Below are positions 540 to 44,830 of a DNA stretch of 64,000 bases, piece by piece (position 1 is the first letter of the stretch; every line of letters starts with the position of its first letter). Where the stretch lies: the NCBI RefSeq assembly GCF_009914755.1, contig NC_060931.1, one strand, 5' to 3'. The notes beneath the pieces were generated by a model. The model ran no database searches, was not told where the DNA came from, and was given only the letters and a program-made list of their open reading frames with translations. The DNA comes from the human T2T-CHM13v2.0 reference genome, Homo sapiens. Both the position numbers and the translations under genes were made by a program.

Positions 540-1090
540 CAAATCTTAGCTATTGTGGACAGTGCTGTGACAAACATAGGAGTGCAGATATCTCTTTGAT
601 ATACTGATTTCCTTTCTTTTAGGTATATGCCTAGCAGTAGGATTGCTGGATCATATGGTAGCTCTATTTTTAGTTTCTTGAGGAACCTCCAGACTGTTCT
701 CCATAGTGGCTGTACTAATTTACATTCCCACCAACAGCGTACGACGGTTCCCCTTTCTCCACGTGCTCACCTGCATTCATTACGGGTCCATCTTTTGGAT
801 AAAAGCATTTTAACTGGGGTGAGATGATGTCTCATTGTAATTTTGATTTTCATTTCTCTGATGGTTAATGATGTTCAACATTTTTTCATATGGTGTTGGC
901 CATTTGTATGTCTTTTGAGAAGTGTCCATTCATCTTTTGTCCGTTTTAAAATCAGATTATTAGATTTTTTTCCTGTTGTTTGAGTTCCATATATATCCTG
1001 GTTATTAATCTCTTGTCAGAGGGGTAATTTGCAAATATTTTCTCCCATCCTGTGGGTTTTAGCTTCATTTTGCTGATTGTTTCCTTTGTT
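540..1090 (-). mobile_element. L1 (L1MA/L1PB-type) ORF2 3' fragment
   Basis: gtgcagatatctctttgatatactgatttcctttc...ggattgctggatcatatggtag...ttacattcccaccaacag...ttgcaaatattttctcccat. Confidence 0.88.
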
Positions 1091-8790: not shown

Positions 8791-10043
8791 ATTCCTAATA
8801 AATCTACCTACAGTGAAATCAAAGGACTTTGTTAGTGTGTTCAGGGCCATTTGAGGTTGCGTGGACTGCAGGAAAGTCTATAAGCCTAAAGAGGCTGAGG
8901 TGTCCATCTAAGTCTGAGTACTTAAGTATTCACATTTTAAAACATGTATTTTGTAATTATGTGTGAGTGGGAGGTAAGCATGAATTTGACAAAGAAAAAT
9001 CTGCATTCATGTTTATGGTGGTAGTATTATAAGTGTGCTGCTAGTTACAATAATTGGCATGTTGCTTACATAGGCACTGACTTAGCAGAAAACTTAGCAA
9101 CTCTTGAAAACACAGTTCAAGGTCTGCAGATGATTTGGTCCACAGGGCCACTGTGAAATAAAACAAATGACCAGTGTGAGACAAAATAATCTTGAGACTT
9201 TTTCCCCATTTATTGAGCTTTCATGTTATGATATTTTGCTATTGTTTAAGTTAGGCATATTGTCAGTTATCTTTTAAAATCATTAAGCAGTTAATTCATT
9301 GACTTCTGAAAACTAAGTTCAATCTAATTTATAAAATAAATAAAATGTCTAAATAATGATTTCCAAATTAAAAAATAATTTCCTGATTCTTTTCTAATAT
9401 TTAATTTCCATTTGAGTCTGTTCATAAAACATCTTATTGTTAATTTTTTTTAAATCATACACCTCTTTAAAGTTCAGAATATCAAAATAAATATTTCTAG
9501 TTCTTACAAATATATATAAGAAGATGCTTTTTCATTTGACTGTCGTTTCTCTGTATAGGTACAAGAAAATTAGACAAAGACTATTAGCATTTGTGTTCTG
9601 GCTTTCATAGCGTTTAACATTCGTTGAAAAATGATATTGACAACATTTTTTATCACCCCCTTTATCTTTTGAGAAAAGTATTATTCCCAGGTTCAACTTT
9701 CAAAACATGTCCTTTTGAAAGTTTCAGGGTTTCCATGGATAGTTTATTTACCTTTTTCTACACCATGTTCTAACTGCATTAAAGAGTGATCCATTAAAAA
9801 GAAAAAACAATCCAACACTTAAAGACCTTATTCACTGCCTACTGGACCCATACAATATGGAATAATGGGACTACTTTAGATTTAGTATTACTGAGGAAAC
9901 TTGTTGCCTACAAGTTCATTCTGAAATTTATGTTCAATGATTAGAAATCACAGTGTATGAGTTATTAGAAATCAAAGTGTAATTTGCTTCTCTGTTACCA
10001 TGAAGAACTACTGAATTTTGAACCCCTGAACACTCTCTTCTAG

Positions 10044-10307
10044 CTGCTTTCGAAATCTATTGAACAACTGAAGCAACCAGGCAGTCACCTTGAGGAAGCA
10101 GAGGAAGAGCTTCAGGGGGACCAGGCGATGCAGGAAGACAGAGCGCCCTCTAGTGGCAACAGCACTAGGAGCGACAGCAGTGCTTGTGTGGATGACACAC
10201 TGGGACAAGTTGGGGCTGTGAAGGTCAAGGAGGAACCAGTGGACAGTGATGAAGATGCTCAGATCCAGGAAATGGAATCTGGGGAGCAGGCTGCTTTTAT
10301 GCAACAG
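10044..10307 (+). CDS. HDAC9: HDAC9 internal coding exon (exon 12 in common numbering), 88 codons, contains the VKEE SUMO consensus
   Basis: Acceptor cactctcttctag| ends at 10043; donor CAG|GTAATA at 10307/10308; 264 nt, phase 0-0. Translation [88 protein letters not shown] is recognised as class IIa HDAC9. It is in frame with the ORF-track entry 10128..10358. Confidence 0.97.
10142..10158 (-). promoter_or_regulatory. CTCF-binding motif inside the coding exon
   Basis: + strand AGCGCCCTCTAGTGGCA = minus strand TGCCACTAGAGGGCGCT, matching the core CCASYAGRKGGCRS at every position. Confidence 0.75.
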
Positions 10308-10358
10308 GTAATAGGCAAAGATTTAGCTCCAGGATTTGTAATTAAAGTCATTATCTGA
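10308..10358 (+). CDS. HDAC9: MITR/HDRP isoform-specific C-terminal extension [16 protein letters not shown] (read-through of the exon donor)
   Basis: Open frame continues past the GT donor to TGA at 10356-10358. The peptide matches the known C-terminus of the short HDAC9 isoform lacking the deacetylase domain. Confidence 0.93.
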
Positions 10359-12675
10359 ACATGAAATGCATTGCAGGTTTGGTAAATGGATATGATTTCC
10401 TATCAGTTTATATTTCTCTATGATTTGAGTTCAGTGTTTAAGGATTCTACCTAATGCAGATATATGTATATATCTATATAGAGGTCTTTCTATATACTGA
10501 TCTCTATATAGATATCAATGTTTCATTGAAAATCCACTGGTAAGGAAATACCTGTTATACTAAAATTATGATACATAATATCTGAGCAGTTAATAGGCTT
10601 TAAATTTATCCCAAAGCCTGCTACACCAATTACTTCTAAAGAAAACAAATTCACTGTTATTTTGAGTTTATGTGTTGAGATCAGTGACTGCTGGATAGTC
10701 TCCCAGTCTGATCAATGAAGCATTCGATTAGTTTTTGATTTTTTGCAACATCTAGAATTTAATTTTCACATCACTGTACATAATGTATCATACTATAGTC
10801 TTGAACACTGTTAAAGGTAGTCTGCCCCTTCCTTCCTCTCTCTTTTTTTAGTTAAGTAGAAATGTTCTGGTCACCATGCCAGTAGTCCTAGGTTATTGTG
10901 TAGGTTGCAATTGAACATATTAGGAATACAGGTGGTTTTAAATATATAGATGCAAATTGCAGCACTACTTTAAATATTAGATTATGTCTCACATAGCACT
11001 GCTCATTTTACTTTTATTTTGTGTAATTTGATGACACTGTCTATCAAAAAAGAGCAAATGAAGCAGATGCAAATGTTAGTGAGAAGTAATGTGCAGCATT
11101 ATGGTCCAATCAGATACAATATTGTGTCTACAATTGCAAAAAACACAGTAACAGGATGAATATTATCTGATATCAAGTCAAAATCAGTTTGAAAAGAAGG
11201 TGTATCATATTTTATATTGTCACTAGAATCTCTTAAGTATAATTCCATAATGACATGGGCATATACCGTAACATTCTGGCAAATAACAATTAGAAAAGAT
11301 AGGTTTAACAAAAAAATTTACTTGTATATAATGCACCTTCAGGAGGACTATGTCCTTTGATGCTATAAAATACAAACAACTTTGAAGGCAACAGAAGACA
11401 CTGTTTATTCAAGTCAGTTCTTTGTCAGGTTCCTGCTGTTCTCCTACAGAAAAGTGATTCTGTGAGGGTGAACAGGAAATGCCTTGTGGAAACAGGAAGT
11501 CCAAGTGATTCATGTACTGAGGAATGTAGGAAAAAAAATCTGAGGATAGTGCTTTACTCTTTCTGTTTTTAAAGGGCACTCTATGAATTGATTTATTGTC
11601 TAAGAAAATAACACCACAAGTAGGGAAATTGTTACGGAAGCTTTTCACTGGAACATTTCCTTCATATTCCCTTTTGATATGTTTACCTTGTTTTATAGGT
11701 TTACTTTTGTTAAGCTAGTTAAAGGTTCGTTGTATTAAGACCCCTTTAATATGGATAATCCAAATTGACCTAGAATCTTTGTGAGGTTTTTTCTATTAAA
11801 ATATTTATATTTCTAAATCCGAGGTATTTCAAGGTGTAGTATCCTATTTCAAAGGAGATATAGCAGTTTTGCCAAATGTAGACATTGTTCAACTGTATGT
11901 TATTGGCACGTGTTGTTTACATTTTGCTGTGACATTTAAAAATATTTCTTTAAAAATGTTACTGCTAAAGATACATTATCCTTTTTTAAAAAGTCTCCAT
12001 TCAAATTAAATTAACATAACTAGAAGTTAGAAAGTTTAAAAGTTTTCCACATAATGAAAGTCCTTCTGATAATTTGACAAATAGCTATAATAGGAACACT
12101 CCCTATCACCAACATATTTTGGTTAGTATATTCCTTCATATTAAAATGACTTTTTGTCAGTTGTTTTGCATTAAAAATATGGCATGCCTAAGATAAAATT
12201 GTATATTTTTTCCATCTCATAAATATTCATTTTCTTCAAAGTCTTTTTTCAATCTCATAAAAAAGGGATAGTGCATCTTTTAAAATACATTTTATTTGGG
12301 GAGGAACATGTGGCTGAGCAGACTTTTGTATAATATTACTTCAAAGATATGTAATCACAAACAAAAAAAACTATTTTTTATAATGTCATTTGAGAGAGTT
12401 TCATCAGTACAGTTGGTGGACGTTAATTGTTTGAATTTGATAGTCTTTGAATTTAATCAAGAAACTACCTGGAACCAGTGAAAAGGAAAGCTGGACTTAA
12501 ATAATCTTAGAATTAATTGATAAATGTCTCTTTTAAAATCTACTGTATTTATTATAATTTACACCCTTGAAGGTGATCTCTTGTTTTGTGTTGTAAATAT
12601 ATTGTTTGTATGTTTCCCTTCTTGCCTTCTGTTATAAGTCTCTTCCTTTCTCAAATAAAGTTTTTTTTAAAAGAT
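10359..12675 (+). other. HDAC9: 3'UTR of the MITR/HDRP (short HDAC9) terminal exon
   Basis: ~2.3 kb AU-rich stretch with no recognisable interspersed repeat between the stop codon and AATAAA at 12654. The 3' end is approximate. Confidence 0.8.
12654..12659 (+). terminator. Polyadenylation signal (AATAAA) for MITR/HDRP
   Basis: AATAAA preceded by several TGTA (CFIm) motifs (12544, 12592, 12607) and U-rich sequence, and followed by a GT/T-rich tract (ttggctttgtgt). Further AATAAA at 12788 and 12831. Confidence 0.75.
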
Positions 12676-35960: not shown

Positions 35961-38900
35961 GATTGGAAAGGAATGAACCATTACTCTTCTTAAGAATACT
36001 CAGAAGGAAAAAGCCTGGATGACTTAAGAGAAAACTTTCCAAATTGTGTTTTAAAACATCAGTCCAGGGAGATGTTCTCTTGTCTGATGAGTTTTGTAAG
36101 CTTCACATTCTATGTAAGCTTTGTGGAGACACCCGGAGTACTTTAGCAAACTGGTGGCTCTGAGAAATCCTGCAGCACAGCAACTTATTTACATTATTGA
36201 TCGCAACATTAAAAAAATGACCATGACATTTTTAAAATGTTACTTTTTTATGGAACAAACTTTTTGAAACACTGACCTAGGACATAGGTAATAAGCTTTT
36301 AACTCCTCATATCTCAGACTTTAGGTAACAAAACTGAAGTGAACTGTAACTTAAAACAAACCGTCTTTCCTTTTTCTGTGCATTTGAGAAAAAGAAGATT
36401 TGGATGTAAATCTATTTATCTCAGACTAAGTTTGGGGTTTCTTGTTAATTTCTGTTTAAAGAGATTTTGTGGGCCACGCAAACTAATGGAGATCTAGTTA
36501 GTATATAATACTTTCTCACATCATGTGGCTAAGTTTACTTGTTTGCTAGTCTTGTATATAAACAGGGCTCTGACAATCTAATGTCTTTCGCCAGCCATTT
36601 ATAAAAGTGACCATGTATATTTTATGGTAAAAAGTAAGTGCATTTTTTGGGCACTGGTAAATAATGATTTGTTTTGTCCTGTTATTTTTTTGTGGAAAGA
36701 AAAATCTTACATTTCAGTCAGATGTTTGTAGTAAAAGAAAATTGTCATATTCAGTAGCCGATGATAAATACATTTTTTGTGTTGTTATGTATACTATACT
36801 GTTTTAAAGACTAAGCTATTTTTTGGCTTTTTAATTTTTTATTGTGATAAATTTAAATAACATAAAAACTAATTGTGCCCCATAAATATAGACAATTATT
36901 TTGTATTAATTAAAAATAAAATAAAACTTTAAAAAGAAAAAAATTTAAATAGTAGCTGAGAATAAAAACTAGATCAACTTAGATATTATTAAAGTCCTGG
37001 GACTCACAGAAAACAATACACTGAGATAAGGTTATATTTGACACCTAATTGTTAAAAGGAGAGATAACCAAACCAAACAAAAATAGCATTATTTCTATTT
37101 AGCCTATTGCAATGTTTTTGTAATAGTTATTGAAATTCAGAGTACATTTATAAAGCTAAAGGAATTCTTTAATTATTAGATACAGAAAATGTCCTTGAAT
37201 GGGAGAATAGATTGAGAAAACACAGTACTCTTCCTATTTTAAGAAGGTCAAAATATTTTTAGAGGACATATTTGGTGTGTTTGTTTAACTAAATATTCAA
37301 TATGAGCAAAGAAGTTACACAATTTACTTTTAACGAAAAAAATTTTCAAATAGGGAGGAGAGAGACGAGGAGAGAACAGATGCTTCTGGTGGTGCAGCAG
37401 CACAAATTGAGCAATTGTCCAGTAGGGGTTGCTCATAGAGCAGGAAGGCTGATTGTTCCAGCTACAAGTTTCACAACTTCAAGTAGACTGGGATTTCAAG
37501 GCCACTCAAGTGTCTTAGTCGAAATAACCTCTTTATGTACTCCGGAAGTGACCCAGCCTCTGATATCTATTAGGATAAAATAGTATGTGTGAAATTAAAG
37601 AATTGCTAAATAAATCATTTGAAGCTTGTCATCTGCCTTAAAATGACATTTTACAAACCACATTTAATATGTTGCTGTGCATTAGTGAGGGGAGCTCATA
37701 ACTGCTTTTCCAAACAGAATCAAAGTGTAGTTAAATTGTTTTTAAACACAGATTTAGAGAATGAAATTGAGGGTAGTAAACTAGTAGCCAACTAAAGCAA
37801 AACAGGCTGGAATGTTGGTAACCGATTGTACACACAGGATCCAAGCAAAACATCTTGAATTGCTAGTACAGTAATAAATTATAGTTTTCACATTTGTATT
37901 TTGCAAGTGAAAACAGCACTAAGTCAAGCTTGTGAAATAAAGACCAAATGATGACGTTTTTAATTCACCCACACCTATGATGACCCAGTAGACCTGCCTC
38001 ATCATGCAATAAATGGAATAACTGAGGCTGAAAAAAGAAAAGACCAGTAGACAGAAACTCCATAGTTTTTGTATGCAATTGTAGATGGGAAAAAATGGTT
38101 GAGAGAGGCAAAGGGTTAATTGTCACAAAGGATCTAATGAATGTGTTGATTTCTTCTCCTTCCTTTGTCCCTCTCTCCTCACAAGATGACCCATACCACA
38201 TTCAGCCAACAGTCAAGGAGCTATCTCATTTTCTTTAGGGTTAATTTTCTCTTCTTAACGTAATGAGATAAACGGCTAAATGGGGTTGGTGTCTCGGGAG
38301 TGTTCAGAGGGCAAGAAATGGTCAAGAACTGGTTTATCTCCAAAGTTCATTAGCCTATTAGATAACTGACGCAGGGCACCCCAATTATCTCAAAGAATGA
38401 GAGACTTCTAAGAGATGGGAGTCAGTCCTTATAATAATGGAACTTGGCTGCCTGCTTCAGAAAAGAGACTCGCAAATCCCTTTCGTGGAGCAGGACTCTT
38501 CTGGGTGGAGAGGATGGGCTGATTTATTTCTCTGTGGTGTCCTGGAGTGTATCTGCCCTGATTGACTCCCTTGGTCTTGACATCAGTCACTTTGGAGTCA
38601 AGATAATGAAAACTACATTAAAGAGGCCCCTCCAGTTTATGCAAATGGAACTTTTTCTTCAAAGGGACAATATCCTTGGGAGAATTTCTGTACTATTGAA
38701 AAGTATTAATAAAAGAAAATGTGTTGGATATTTCCTCCCTCCTACTCCTCATTTTCTCTAATTTACATAGGAGTGGGAGTGACATTTTTTATTTTGTTTC
38801 ATTAAAACCCTAAATTTTCCTCATGCTTTATCTAAGGAAGTCAAATTGTATTTAGTCTGAAGGTTGCTGCATGGAATTAGTAAGGACATAAGTGACACTT

Positions 38901-40598: not shown

Positions 40599-43187
40599 AG
40601 TTGTTCTTATTATTACTTGACTTAGGAATCTATGGCTGTACAATTACAGGTGAGATTCACAATATTGAACAACCATTTGGTTTGGCACTTATCAAACAGA
40701 ACAGAACAGATAGTGGCAATAACAATCATCACATTCTCGGTGAGCATCATTGGCGCTGAGGAAGAGATATGATTGCAAAGATATCTGTTGGAGGTATTAT
40801 TCTTCCCACACATAAGCACAAACAACTTATTACGGAGAAATAAATAAAAGTAACCCAGAGACTTCCTTTGCTAGTGAAAACACAGAGGCAAATTCTTAGA
40901 GTTAAGCTAAGAGTAAACGATGCCTGAGGAACGCATTCAAAGTCCCAAATACTTAACTTGGAAGACTCTCCTTGTAAGGATGGCCTAGCAGTTTCCCTTC
41001 AGCAGTAGTAAATCTGGATGAGCTTCTCTAGGATCACATCCTGGCAGATGAGATGCTCATCATGACGAGGCCCAGCCTATGGGAGATGGGATCATTAGCC
41101 TGTTTTTACATTTTAAAATGGCCTATGTGTTTTCTTCCTTTTATTTTTTTTAAATCAGGAATGCATGATCTTTGTAGAAAATTTGGCAAAAGCTGACAAG
41201 TATAAAAAACAGGTGAAACATCACCCATAAAACCATCACCCAGAGCAAGCACTATTCACATTATTACATGTTTTTTCCCTAGTCTCAATCTCTCTTTCTT
41301 TGTCTCTCTCTGTGTCTCTCTTTTTGCTGAAAATTATCTTGCTGTTTGGAAAGACAGTAAATATTTCTTCCTTTGGGTAACATCTGAAGCTTTTTGTCCC
41401 ACTCCCTTTTCAACTGTAATACCACCTATGTTAAGACTGTTTAAGATGGCTAATCTTTTAGACACTGATATTCCTAAAGTGTTCAAATGGCTCTTATCCC
41501 TTGAGTCACCATGGTTTGCTCAGTCTTCATGGGACCTGTGAGGAAATTCCTTTCAGGGGTCTTGGCATGAGCTGAGAGTTTAGAGTTCAAACATTTCTTA
41601 CTTTGGATCGAAATGGAAGTAAACAGTAGATTTTTTTTTTTGTTATGCTCATGACTGCCAAGATTTTTATTTTAGGGTTGGATGTTATTTTAGGGTTGAA
41701 TTTTAGGGAGGCATGATGAGGGTGATCAGTACTAAAGCCTTGACTTAATAAAAAGAATTTTGATGGTAGTCATGGAAGTGTTCAGTGAACTCTAACTACT
41801 CATGAATCAATGATATCATGAGTAATGCTAAAATTAGACTCACCAGGAGAAGACGCATGAACAAAAATTATGTGATTATGAGAAAAAGAAGGAAACTTAT
41901 CTGTTATCATAAACACTGATTATAACTCTGGAAATGCTTCACTAAACACATCAAAAATTCTTTTTGATCAGAATTTAATATAAGCTCAATGAGTTGATTA
42001 TGTAAGCCCTCTGCTACTTTTCTCCCCCTACACCAAATGCCTAAATAAACTTTATTTTTCAAGTTGAAAGGACCGTTCTAAAATTCGTCATTCTTAATGC
42101 TCTAAAACGCCCGGGTTCAGAAAATTAAATTACGCCATTTTTATCCGTTTGAGATCAGTTCTGTTTCCTCCTTTGGTTTGTGTTTACTTTCCTGCAGTAG
42201 CTGACATCAAAATGTTTTCTGGAATGCTGGGACTAAATAAGTTATGCTTAACTCAATATCTAATACAAATAGCCCTGGGGAGCTTCAGCGACACAATCAT
42301 AAAAGCTATAGTTTCTTTTAATAGCTTGCCACACTTTGCTGATATAGTATTTCTCTAATCACCAATCTTTATGTGCCTTCCTGACCTTGGAGCTCTCAGT
42401 CTAAATGGCTTTATGGTATCAAAGGCCTGTGTCATTGGAAGAGTGAATGGCTTTCATTTTTCCCCTTGAAACTTCCAGTTCCTGGCATCTGTAAAGAATT
42501 ATTCCAAGTGGTATTTTGCTGCCTTGCGGCCACTGCCCTGTCCAATGGAAGTGACTTTTCCCAGAAAGGTCACAGTGGTCTGTAATAGGTGGATATTGCA
42601 TTCAGGGAGGAGGCAACTCTGATTTCTCTATTTTTTTCTTTTACAATATTAATTATTCTTGTATCACATTAGTTATCAAAGATCTACATCACATTTTGTT
42701 TGCAAAATATTTTGGCAAAAAATGGTACACTGTCATGTTCTAAGCATGAAAGGTTAGCAACAAGCTTCATAAAGTCATCCTATTTGTTGGGAAAAAGACT
42801 TTTCATTTACACTTGATGGGGGAGATTATAGCAATGCACAATAGTTCGTCTTCAGACTCTGTTCCTCTTCAGCACCTCAAAAGCACACCAAAAAGTGTGA
42901 CACAGCAGTGATTCTGGGGTCTCAAATCCACAGTATCTCTCCCTAACTGTGTCAACTGGCTGGGGCAACCATTGAGAACCAAGACTTCTGACTCACACCT
43001 TATTCTAAATTTGCATTTCTCAACATAATTATGTTTTAAGCTTTGTGCACAGTCAATAGAGGGTGATCCCATGGATATCTTTCCATGGCTTAGACAGGAA
43101 CTTTGGGTAATAGGTAACGTTTCCAAACCTTCTCTGTGCCTTAGAATCTTAAAAGCACAGAGAGCAGTGTGGGCAGGGGAGTCTGTA

Positions 43188-44384: not shown

Positions 44385-44830
44385 GTATTGAGTTGGCAAC
44401 CTTTTGCTCTGTAACAAATCAGCCCAAAACATAATGAAAACAATAAACACGCATTATTACCCAGGAATCTACTGATCAGCTGGTGGTTCTTCTGTTCTGA
44501 GTCTACTCTGCTAGGTCTAGGCTGGCCTTGCTCACACGTCTGGGAAAGCTTGCCTGGCTGAGAATGCTAGGGCCTCTCTCCACATGGTTGTCATCTCCAG
44601 GAGACTAGCCTTAGTGTGCTCACAGGGCATGGCACAAGTGCTCCCAGTAGCCAGAAGTTGCTGGCCCCAGCTGGCAAGCACTTTTTAAGTGTCTGCTTCT
44701 GTTACTCCTGCTATTATCTCATTGGTCAAATCACATCCCACGGCCAAGCTCAGGGTTATCATGGGAGGGAGCTACTTAAAAGCTTGTGTGTAGAGAGGAA
44801 TGCTTCACTGGGTACCTGTACTGCTACCTT
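44385..44830 (-). mobile_element. Old MLT1-type (MaLR) LTR
   Basis: Typical MLT1 segments (gctctgtaacaaatcagcccaaaac, ggcctctctccacatgg, cattggtcaaatcacatcccacggccaagctcag). Diverged; boundaries approximate. Confidence 0.65.

What the first reader, a model, noticed from the sequence alone, without database searches (positions are those of the whole stretch)
10142..10158. Near-perfect CTCF site encoded in the codons of the HDAC9/MITR decision exon
Seen: codons R-A-P-S-S-G (AGA GCG CCC TCT AGT GGC) read TGCCACTAGAGGGCGCT on the minus strand, a full match to the CTCF core. It uses the rare CpG-containing Ala codon GCG (CpG 10144-10145) in an otherwise CpG-depleted window. Established: exonic CTCF can pause Pol II and favour weak-exon inclusion, CTCF binding can be methylation-sensitive and can influence poly(A)-site choice, and the HDAC9 gene body carries regulatory elements for neighbouring TWIST1. 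Inference: this exon is dual-coding. The site lies ~100 nt from the acceptor and ~150 nt from a weak donor, so a methylation-switchable CTCF site could steer inclusion, skipping or MITR termination. Its reverse orientation points back toward the HDAC9 promoters, so a loop could bracket the MITR transcription unit.
Basis: partly seen in the sequence, partly recalled or inferred. Interest (0 to 1): 0.8.

Follow-up and report, generated by a model that had tools for sequence, protein, structure and literature searches.

The report
Strong CTCF motif inside HDAC9 exon
A near-perfect docking sequence for the genome-folding protein CTCF is written into six codons of the HDAC9 exon that can be kept, skipped or turned into the end of the short MITR form; it is probably a real binding site, but whether it steers that choice is untested.

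Summary
The minus strand at window 10141-10159 carries a near-optimal CTCF core. It scores 24.4 of 29.2 bits, against 16.5 for the next best site in 264 kb. It lies inside codons R-A-P-S-S-G of the 264-nt HDAC9 exon, 98 nt from the acceptor and 149 nt from the donor CAG|GTAATA.

About 1e-4 such sites are expected per window by chance, but about 2 per exome. The synonymous codon choices are almost the best possible for CTCF: 16 of 55,296 encodings score as well (P about 1e-4).

The exon truly has three fates: included, skipped (HDAC9-delta12) or extended to the MITR end.

- The single CpG sits at motif position 12, which is not the position where methylation blocks binding in vitro.
- The site lies 2.5 kb upstream of the MITR poly(A) signal, not downstream as the published CTCF/poly(A) model requires.
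- The looping idea is geometrically sound. Plus-strand motifs lie 75 and 314 kb upstream, at the places of the published CTCF-5 and CTCF-6 sites.

No occupancy data or orthologous DNA could be reached. My verdict is a likely genuine exonic CTCF site, a new member of a known kind, of moderate interest.

The parts
10141..10159 (-). CTCF core motif (19-mer TTGCCACTAGAGGGCGCTC; strict 15-mer at 10142-10156)
   Evidence: sole exact IUPAC match in the window; 24.39 of 29.15 bits; T2T C7:18796141-18796159.
10144..10145 (.). The only CpG in the motif. It is positions 12-13 of the 15-mer and codon positions 2-3 of Ala GCG.
10044..10307 (+). HDAC9 coding exon of 264 nt (88 codons). It is exon 12 in Petrie's numbering and exon 11 in NM_058176 numbering.
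   Evidence: Annotation given with the finding; translation; the delta12 isoform loses 88 aa; eTw19 is listed as 'Intron 11'.
10019..10046 (+). Acceptor: tgaacccctgaacactctcttctag|CTG. By my own count, 14 of 18 pyrimidines at -20..-3.
   Evidence: sequence printed; the pyrimidine count was read from that output.
10305..10313 (+). Donor CAG|GTAATA, lacking G at +5 and T at +6. It is suboptimal, not extreme.
   Evidence: 7 of 9 consensus matches; log-odds 7.35 against 12.63 for the consensus (frequency table recalled); 98.65th percentile of all GT sites in the window.
10308..10358 (+). MITR-specific coding tail [16 protein letters not shown] plus stop, read when the donor is not used
12654..12674 (+). 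AATAAA poly(A) signal at 12654 and the annotated end of the long (MITR) terminal exon at 12674
   Evidence: annotation row 'exons of other transcripts 10044-12674'.

Best explanation
The 19-mer is a genuine high-affinity CTCF recognition sequence superimposed on codons R-A-P-S-S-G of HDAC9 exon 12. The sequence shows a near-optimal core, produced by near-optimal synonymous codon choices, in reverse orientation relative to HDAC9 transcription.

I infer three further steps. First, it is occupied by CTCF in many cell types. Second, it acts mainly as an orientation-dependent cohesin barrier. In that role it would be the downstream anchor of loops reaching back into the 5' half of HDAC9, convergent with the plus-strand motifs at the human counterparts of the published CTCF-5 (75 kb upstream) and CTCF-6 (314 kb upstream, beyond the classical promoter). 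This would set the MITR-encoding half of the gene apart from the 3' half, which holds most TWIST1 enhancers. Third, any slowing of RNA polymerase inside exon 12, and hence any effect on its inclusion, would be a secondary consequence. A simple methylation on/off switch is unlikely.
For: Motif strength: and the comparison with the canonical site.

Chance: 1.4e-4 expected per window.

Codon choice: 16 of 55,296 encodings score at least as high; P is 2.4e-4 or 1.0e-4 with the gene's own usage over 546 codons. The best attainable score is 24.62 against 24.39 observed. Every single synonymous change in the Ala, Pro, both Ser and Gly codons lowers the score, by 1.1 to 7.2 bits.

Genome-wide excess: the exact 15-mer occurs 18 times, against 0.35-3.8 expected. 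The 18 copies share no flank similarity (0 pairs at E<=1e-3), so they are independent loci and not a repeat family.

Base rate: about 80% of FIMO hits at p<1e-6 are true CTCF sites, a figure by Dozmorov quoted in 10.64898/2026.07.18.739380.

Locus: this is the strongest motif in 264 kb, 24.4 bits against 17.3 for the next. A plus-strand motif of 14.8 bits lies in the 1-kb intron between the two exons that match the published CTCF-5 deletion and eTw20. A plus-strand motif of 15.05 bits lies inside the eTw23 / 700-kb place. The Twist1 promoter is reported to contact sites 475 and 700 kb away, not one at this exon's place. That fits a site facing away from TWIST1.
Against: No ChIP, cohesin or contact data could be consulted, so occupancy is inferred from motif strength and base rates alone.

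A simple exon-like null model still allows about 1.8 motifs this strong somewhere in the exome by chance.

The exon's protein is identical in 119 of the 120 best hits, all placental mammals. Twelve of the 19 motif bases are therefore pinned by the peptide anyway.

The weight matrix and codon table were recalled from memory.

The partner motifs are only moderate (about 15 bits). Their occupancy is known only for mouse limb bud, through the papers' text. Their human placement rests on Table S1 coordinates and a bounded hg19-to-T2T offset of 89.3-90.3 kb.

The exon is not among the 15 TWIST1 enhancer candidates. It is not discussed in either Hirsch paper.

Only 264 kb plus 5 kb of the roughly 1.2-Mb locus was scanned.
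Confidence: 0.5

Rival explanations
1. CD45-exon-5-type roadblock. CTCF bound inside exon 12 slows RNA polymerase II just after the acceptor has been transcribed. That would favour inclusion of exon 12 over the delta12 isoform, and this would be the site's main selected function.
For: The site lies within a documented cassette exon: delta12 is an in-frame loss of 88 aa. CTCF bound in CD45 exon 5 promotes inclusion, and CTCF sites within about 1 kb downstream of alternative exons correlate with inclusion. A second exonic example, the calcium channel exon, is listed in the same review (PMC8373115, passages). The donor is suboptimal at 7 of 9.
Against: There are no isoform or Pol II data. The acceptor is not obviously weak: 14 of 18 pyrimidines, TAG|C. 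The methylation control central to that model has no sensitive CpG here. The review itself notes that the roadblock model does not explain many sites.
Confidence: 0.2
2. Fortuitous motif. The sequence arose by chance on a conserved peptide and is not bound, or is bound without consequence, in gene-body chromatin.
For: About 1.8 such motifs are expected per exome under an exon-like null. The peptide is fixed in placentals. The finding was picked because it looks like a motif, so the codon-choice P value is post hoc. No paper mentions it.
Against: The synonymous choices are near-optimal. The exact 15-mer is in 5- to 50-fold excess genome-wide, at unrelated loci. The quoted base rate for strong motifs is about 80%. 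The motif CpG is one of only 4 left in an exon where codon resampling expects 12.2.
Confidence: 0.2
3. CTCF/cohesin control of intronic polyadenylation. Binding, tuned by DNA methylation, decides between the MITR poly(A) site and read-on to full-length HDAC9.
For: CTCF/cohesin looping has been linked to the choice of proximal poly(A) sites in a methylation-dependent way (Nanavaty 2020 as summarised in PMC8373115; abstract of PMC12162027 in the listing). MITR is made by using AATAAA at 12654 inside the intron.
Against: The published geometry has CTCF downstream of the proximal poly(A) site. Here the site is 2,495 nt upstream of the signal and also upstream of the donor, so a stall there precedes both competing signals. 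The CpG is at the insensitive position.
Confidence: 0.07
4. The codon choices reflect RNA-level constraints, such as exonic splicing enhancers or RNA structure, and the likeness to a CTCF site is a by-product.
For: Alternative exons carry dense splicing signals that bias synonymous sites (general knowledge; titles in the listing).
Against: A by-product matching 15 of 15 strict consensus positions is improbable.
Confidence: 0.03

Closest known systems
CTCF site in CD45 (PTPRC) exon 5, and the similar exonic site in the calcium-channel gene listed in the same review (Shukla 2011 and Lopez Soto 2020, seen only as summarised in PMC8373115)
   Same: A CTCF motif lies inside an alternatively included coding exon. 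The proposed action is slowing of RNA polymerase II so that the exon is recognised.
   Different: In those cases binding is switched by methylation of the site. Here the only CpG is at motif position 12, which does not block binding in vitro. No binding or splicing data exist for the HDAC9 exon. This exon also has a third fate, terminal-exon extension to MITR.
CTCF-5 and CTCF-6 of the Twist1-Hdac9 locus (Hirsch 2018 and 2022; PMC6233932 and PMC9341515, passages and Table S1)
   Same: They are CTCF sites inside the HDAC9 gene body that belong to the same regulatory landscape. CTCF-5 lies in a 1.5-kb stretch with two coding exons.
   Different: CTCF-5 is intronic, and its human counterpart is a 14.8-bit plus-strand motif facing TWIST1. 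It contacts the Twist1 promoter, and its deletion lowers Twist1 expression. The exon-12 site is exonic, far stronger as a motif (24.4 bits), faces the other way, and is not mentioned in either paper's text. A site numbered 'CTCF-4' is implied by the numbering but never described in the text. The figures could not be seen.
Dual-use coding exons of HDAC9 acting as TWIST1 enhancers (eTw6, eTw17, eTw18, eTw20; PMC9341515 Table S1), and HDAC9 exon remnants kept near zebrafish twist1 (PMC2831330)
   Same: Coding sequence of the same gene carries a second, DNA-level regulatory function.
   Different: Those are enhancers defined by chromatin marks and reporter assays. This exon is not among the 15 candidates. 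Which HDAC9 exons survive as remnants is given in a supplement I could not read.
CTCF/cohesin-dependent alternative polyadenylation (Nanavaty 2020, seen only as summarised)
   Same: A gene-body CTCF site near a proximal/intronic poly(A) choice.
   Different: The required position, downstream of the proximal poly(A) site, is not met: the site is 2.5 kb upstream.

Membership tests
CTCF binding site (core-motif class) | Match to the 15-bp core consensus or weight matrix | tested here: met
   Exact IUPAC match, 0 of 100 shuffles. 24.39 of 29.15 bits (matrix recalled). 14 of 16 bases identical to the canonical site printed in PMC5694663.
CTCF binding site (core-motif class) | Occupancy by CTCF in cells (ChIP-seq or footprint) | not testable with these tools
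   No ChIP data are held. Only the base rate of about 80% for p<1e-6 motifs is available (quoted).
CTCF binding site (core-motif class) | Conservation of the motif bases, including synonymous positions, in orthologues | not testable with these tools
   No vertebrate DNA is held. Scans of genome contigs and viral contigs found no relative. Only proteins could be compared.
Convergent CTCF loop anchor | An oppositely oriented partner motif on the side the site faces | tested here: met
   Plus-strand motifs lie at C7:18720776 (14.8 bits, -75.4 kb) and C7:18482336 (15.05 bits, -313.8 kb), at the places of the published CTCF-5 and CTCF-6. No plus-strand motif of 13 bits or more lies at the classical promoter within the 200 kb scanned.
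Convergent CTCF loop anchor | Cohesin co-occupancy and a contact in Hi-C, Micro-C or 4C | not testable with these tools
   Not available. The Twist1-promoter viewpoint in Hirsch 2018 reports contacts at 475 and 700 kb only.
CD45-exon-5-type exonic CTCF splicing regulator | CTCF site within, or within about 1 kb downstream of, an alternatively included exon | tested here: met
   The site is inside the exon. The delta12 isoform lacks exactly these 88 codons.
CD45-exon-5-type exonic CTCF splicing regulator | CpG at a motif position where methylation evicts CTCF | tested here: not met
   Positions 2-3 read CA. The only CpG is at positions 12-13. Position 12 is insensitive in vitro. An in vivo association for this position is reported.
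CD45-exon-5-type exonic CTCF splicing regulator | Weak splice sites of the regulated exon | tested here: inconclusive
   The donor matches 7 of 9 and lacks +5 G. The acceptor has a fair pyrimidine tract. No calibrated splice-site scorer was on hand.
CTCF/cohesin-regulated alternative polyadenylation | CTCF site downstream of the proximal poly(A) site | tested here: not met
   The site at 10141-10159 is 2,495 nt upstream of AATAAA at 12654.
HDAC9 exonic TWIST1 enhancers (eExons) | Listed as an enhancer candidate with active marks, or contacts the TWIST1 promoter | tested here: not met
   The exon is absent from the 15 candidates of Table S1. It is not among the promoter-contacting CTCF sites in the text.

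The most novel reading that the evidence does not exclude
The codons of exon 12 have been selected for genome architecture. In this reading a methylation-independent, reverse-facing CTCF anchor is written through near-optimal synonymous choices. It closes a loop from the CTCF-6/CTCF-5 side that brackets the classical-promoter MITR transcription unit. By holding polymerase and cohesin inside the exon, it couples that loop to the three-way fate of exon 12 (include, skip, or terminate as MITR). It would also separate HDAC9's own regulatory space from the TWIST1 enhancer field in the 3' half of the gene.
Probability: 0.12. Interest if true: 0.7.

Novelty: new member of a known kind. Interest (0 to 1): 0.45.

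Why it matters
HDAC9 and its catalytically dead short form MITR have different activities. What sets their ratio is not known from the reviews I read. The same gene body also carries the TWIST1 regulatory landscape, whose disruption causes craniosynostosis-like and limb phenotypes.

A strong, oppositely oriented CTCF site between CTCF-5 and the TWIST1 enhancers has three consequences. It would have to be taken into account when interpreting structural variants and synonymous variants in this exon. It would add a coding-exon CTCF anchor to a locus already known for dual-use exons. And it offers a clean test case, because motif-breaking changes can be made without altering the protein.

Tried and rejected
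- Orthologous DNA for the synonymous-site test: the search for related loci in genome contigs (247 pattern matches, none confirmed) and in viral contigs (28 matches, none confirmed). No vertebrate DNA collection is on hand, so the key conservation test was not run.
- Paralogous exons (HDAC4/5/7) in the own genome: the 88-aa query found only the exon itself at E<=10.
- Full motif map of the roughly 1.2-Mb HDAC9-TWIST1 locus: only 200 kb upstream was obtained. One 5-kb piece was obtained later. The 400 kb between the window and TWIST1 and most of the far upstream part remain unscanned, so I cannot say whether this exon is the 'CTCF-4' implied by Hirsch's numbering.
- Genome-wide IUPAC count (at least 3,654 against 40 for the backward control): set aside as a fair comparison, because the backward pattern contains an obligatory CpG.
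- Literature: no paper holds the 15-mer or its complement. HDAC9+CTCF+TWIST1 gave 34 papers, HDAC9+MITR+CTCF gave 22, the TAD-boundary search gave 202 at 3 of 4 terms, and the exon 12/polyadenylation search gave 65 at 3 of 5 terms. None describes a CTCF site in this exon, judged by titles and by the passages read. PMC5650274 and PMC8303726 held nothing site-specific.
- Papers not reached: Hashimoto 2017 is not held and is known here only through the review PMC6222495. The supplement of PMC2831330 that names the HDAC9 exon remnants could not be read. The figures of the Hirsch papers and their PDF supplement are not held.
- The upstream (ZF9-11) CTCF module was not tested, because I could not recall its consensus reliably.

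Full report
**Observation.** The sequence is as described. On the + strand, 10142-10158 reads AGCGCCCTCTAGTGGCA. The minus strand therefore reads TGCCACTAGAGGGCGCT. Exon 10044-10307 translates in frame 1 to ...[13 protein letters not shown]..., so the motif lies in codons AGA GCG CCC TCT AGT GGC. Reading through the donor gives [16 protein letters not shown] and a stop, which is the MITR tail.

The strict consensus CCASYAGRKGGCRSY, which I recalled, has one match in the 64-kb window, at 10142-10156 on the minus strand. None of 100 shuffles had a match. Allowing two mismatches gives 4 matches against 2.19 expected, which is unremarkable (16 of 100 shuffles reach 4). With a weight matrix (JASPAR MA0139.1 counts, recalled from memory) the 19-mer at 10141-10159 scores 24.39 of a possible 29.15 bits, and the next best site in the window scores 16.48. 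As a check that does not depend on my memory, the site differs at 2 of 16 bases from the 'canonical CCACTAGGGGGCGCTA' printed in PMC5694663 (passages).

**Chance.**
- Under a first-order background fitted to the window, P(score >= observed) is 1.1e-9 per position. That gives 1.4e-4 expected per window and about 7 in a genome of this composition.
- Under an exon-like composition P is 2.5e-8, or about 1.8 expected in a 35-Mb exome. Chance is therefore negligible for this window but not for a scan of every exon.
- In the window's own genome the exact 15-mer occurs 18 times (6 forward, 12 reverse), against 0.35-3.8 expected.
- The 18 copies share no flank similarity over 150 nt on each side (0 pairs at E<=1e-3). 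They are independent loci and not a repeat family.
- The genome-wide IUPAC count (at least 3,654 against 40 for the backward control) overstates the excess, because the backward pattern has an obligatory CpG.

**Is the motif forced by the protein?** No.
- Of the 55,296 synonymous encodings of D-R-A-P-S-S-G-N, 16 score at least as high as the real one. The best attainable score is 24.62.
- Weighted by human codon usage (a recalled table), P is 2.4e-4. Weighted by the usage of 546 other HDAC9/MITR codons, P is 1.0e-4.
- Every single synonymous change in the Ala, Pro, both Ser and Gly codons lowers the score, by 1.1 to 7.2 bits. Changes in the flanking Asp, Arg and Asn codons are neutral or nearly so.
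- GCG is used only once among the other counted codons.
- The exon is strongly CpG-depleted. It has 4 CpGs, whereas codon resampling expects 12.2 +/- 2.7 (P(<=4) = 0.0009 in 20,000 resamplings). Independent resampling overstates CpGs across codon borders.
- These figures are post hoc, since the site was chosen because it looks like a motif. They nevertheless agree with selection on the DNA.

**The exon.** PMC8516780 (passages) summarises Petrie's isoforms. Full-length HDAC9 has 1,069 aa and HDAC9-delta12 has 981 aa 'due to an in-frame deletion of exon 12'. The difference of 88 aa equals this 264-nt exon. Together with the annotated extension 10044-12674, and AATAAA at 12654 lying 20 nt before that end, the exon has three documented fates. 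The donor CAG|GTAATA matches 7 of 9 consensus positions and lacks G at +5. It is suboptimal rather than very weak, and the acceptor has a fair pyrimidine tract.

**Methylation.** The only CpG in the motif is C12-G13 of the 15-mer, and positions 2-3 read CA.
- The review PMC6222495, summarising Hashimoto 2017 (not held), states that methylation at position 12 'only marginally improved' recognition, whereas methylation at position 2 'significantly impacted' binding.
[quoted passage not shown] A direct methylation switch is therefore not supported. An indirect in vivo association is not excluded.

**Splicing and polyadenylation models.** According to PMC8373115 (passages), CTCF in CD45 exon 5 stalls polymerase and promotes inclusion, and sites within about 1 kb downstream of alternative exons correlate with inclusion. 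The HDAC9 site fits that geometry. [quoted passage not shown] Here the site lies 2,495 nt upstream of the MITR signal and upstream of the donor, so that model does not fit.

**Locus architecture.** I scanned 200 kb upstream plus the window, 264 kb in all, at a threshold of 13 bits.
- There are 7 hits, and the exon site is far the strongest. The next are 17.33 (minus, -95 kb), 16.48 (plus, window 37416) and 15.86 (minus, -189 kb).
- Mapping a human 546-aa MITR-type protein (P0041) onto this DNA shows a plus-strand motif at C7:18,720,776 (14.8 bits). It sits in the 1-kb intron between exons at 18,720,186-326 and 18,721,359-484.
- That place matches the published CTCF-5. The matching facts are a 1.5-kb deletion with two exons and an intronic CTCF site, eTw20 'Exon 3, intron 3' in Table S1, and a position 475 kb from Twist1 in mouse. 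The last step uses my recalled position of Twist1.
- eTw20 bounds the hg19-to-T2T offset to 89.3-90.3 kb.
- With any offset in that range, eTw23 (the 700-kb place of CTCF-6) contains a plus-strand motif of 15.05 bits at C7:18,482,336, which is 313.8 kb upstream.
- No plus-strand motif of 13 bits or more lies near the classical promoter (eTw22 place) in the scanned DNA.

By the convergent rule (established knowledge, recalled), the minus-strand exon site can pair with both plus-strand sites but not with TWIST1, from which it faces away. This fits the report that the Twist1 promoter contacts sites at 475 and 700 kb only. A loop from the CTCF-6 place to exon 12 would enclose the classical promoter and end 2.5 kb before the MITR poly(A) site. 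Hirsch's numbering implies a bound 'CTCF-4' between the Twist1 promoter and CTCF-5 that the text never describes. Whether it is this exon cannot be told without the figures.

**Conservation.** Only proteins could be compared.
- The 88-aa exon is 100% identical in 119 of the 120 best of 1,242 hits. These are primates, carnivores, cetaceans, horses, bats and others. One hit, a colugo, is at 99%.
- Ruminants and camelids differ nearby but keep R-A-P-S-S-G.
- Of 21 cluster representatives I aligned 15. I left out two fragments (P0126, P0129) and four repetitive partial matches (P0136, P0139-P0141). Only 1 of the 15 keeps RAPSSG, while the flanking blocks [11 protein letters not shown] and VKVKEEP are kept throughout.

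The hexapeptide therefore lies in a linker that is free to change at greater distance. The motif, if selected, would be no older than mammals or amniotes. No orthologous DNA could be found and no paralogous exon was detectable. The decisive synonymous-site test remains open.

**Prior description.** No paper in the library holds the 15-mer. None of the papers returned by the searches describes a CTCF site in this exon, as far as titles and the passages read show. The exon is not among the 15 enhancer candidates of Hirsch 2022. PMC2831330 reports five HDAC9 exon remnants kept near the zebrafish twist1 genes. Which exons they are is given in a supplement I could not read.

**Verdict.** The site is most likely a real CTCF site. 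The quoted base rate is about 80% for motifs far weaker than this one. I rate occupancy in at least some cell types at about 0.8. An architectural, reverse-facing barrier is my leading mechanism at 0.5. A CD45-like effect on exon 12 inclusion comes next at 0.2. An inert chance motif is also at 0.2. It is a new member of a known kind (an exonic CTCF site in a locus already known for dual-use exons), easily checked in public data, and of moderate interest.

Noticed in passing
window about 41,000-43,100 (T2T C7:18,827,005-18,829,117, by the bounded offset): The published TWIST1 craniofacial enhancer eTw19 (hg19 chr7:18,737,675-18,738,849, 'Intron 11', active in zebrafish branchial arches) falls inside this window, about 31-33 kb downstream of the exon. 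It is flanked by two weak CTCF-like motifs that face each other: 37416-37434 (+, 16.5 bits) and 44659-44677 (-, 13.1 bits).
   Followed up: partly
L013-L014, G000:C7:18,720,776-18,720,794 (+): The human counterpart of the functionally tested mouse CTCF-5 site is only a 14.8-bit motif. It lies in the 1-kb intron between two coding exons. The untested exon-12 motif, 75 kb away and convergent with it, is about 10 bits stronger.
   Followed up: partly
L022, G000:C7:18,482,336 (+) and 18,483,665 (-): The eTw23 / 700-kb (CTCF-6) place holds two moderate motifs of opposite orientation 1.3 kb apart (15.05 and 14.78 bits).
   Followed up: no
window 10044-10307: The exon keeps only 4 CpGs, against 12.2 expected from codon resampling. 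All four involve a synonymous third codon position (TCG, GCG, GCG, AGC|G), so each could have decayed without changing the protein.
   Followed up: partly
window 10341-10346: An ATTAAA hexamer lies inside the MITR-specific coding tail, 34 nt past the donor and before the stop codon. Four more ATTAAA hexamers lie at 11795-12170 in the MITR 3' UTR. The annotated end uses AATAAA at 12654.
   Followed up: no
window 738-818 and 1763-1873: Two exons of other HDAC9 transcripts have good splice sites (cag|...|gtgaga and tag|...|gtttga). The first overlaps stretches that NCBI masks as repeats, so it may be an exonised repeat.
   Followed up: no
L023-L040 (18 loci in G000): The exact 15-mer of this site occurs at 17 other places in the genome with unrelated flanks. 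Several have stop-free frames across them, so other exonic copies may exist.
   Followed up: partly
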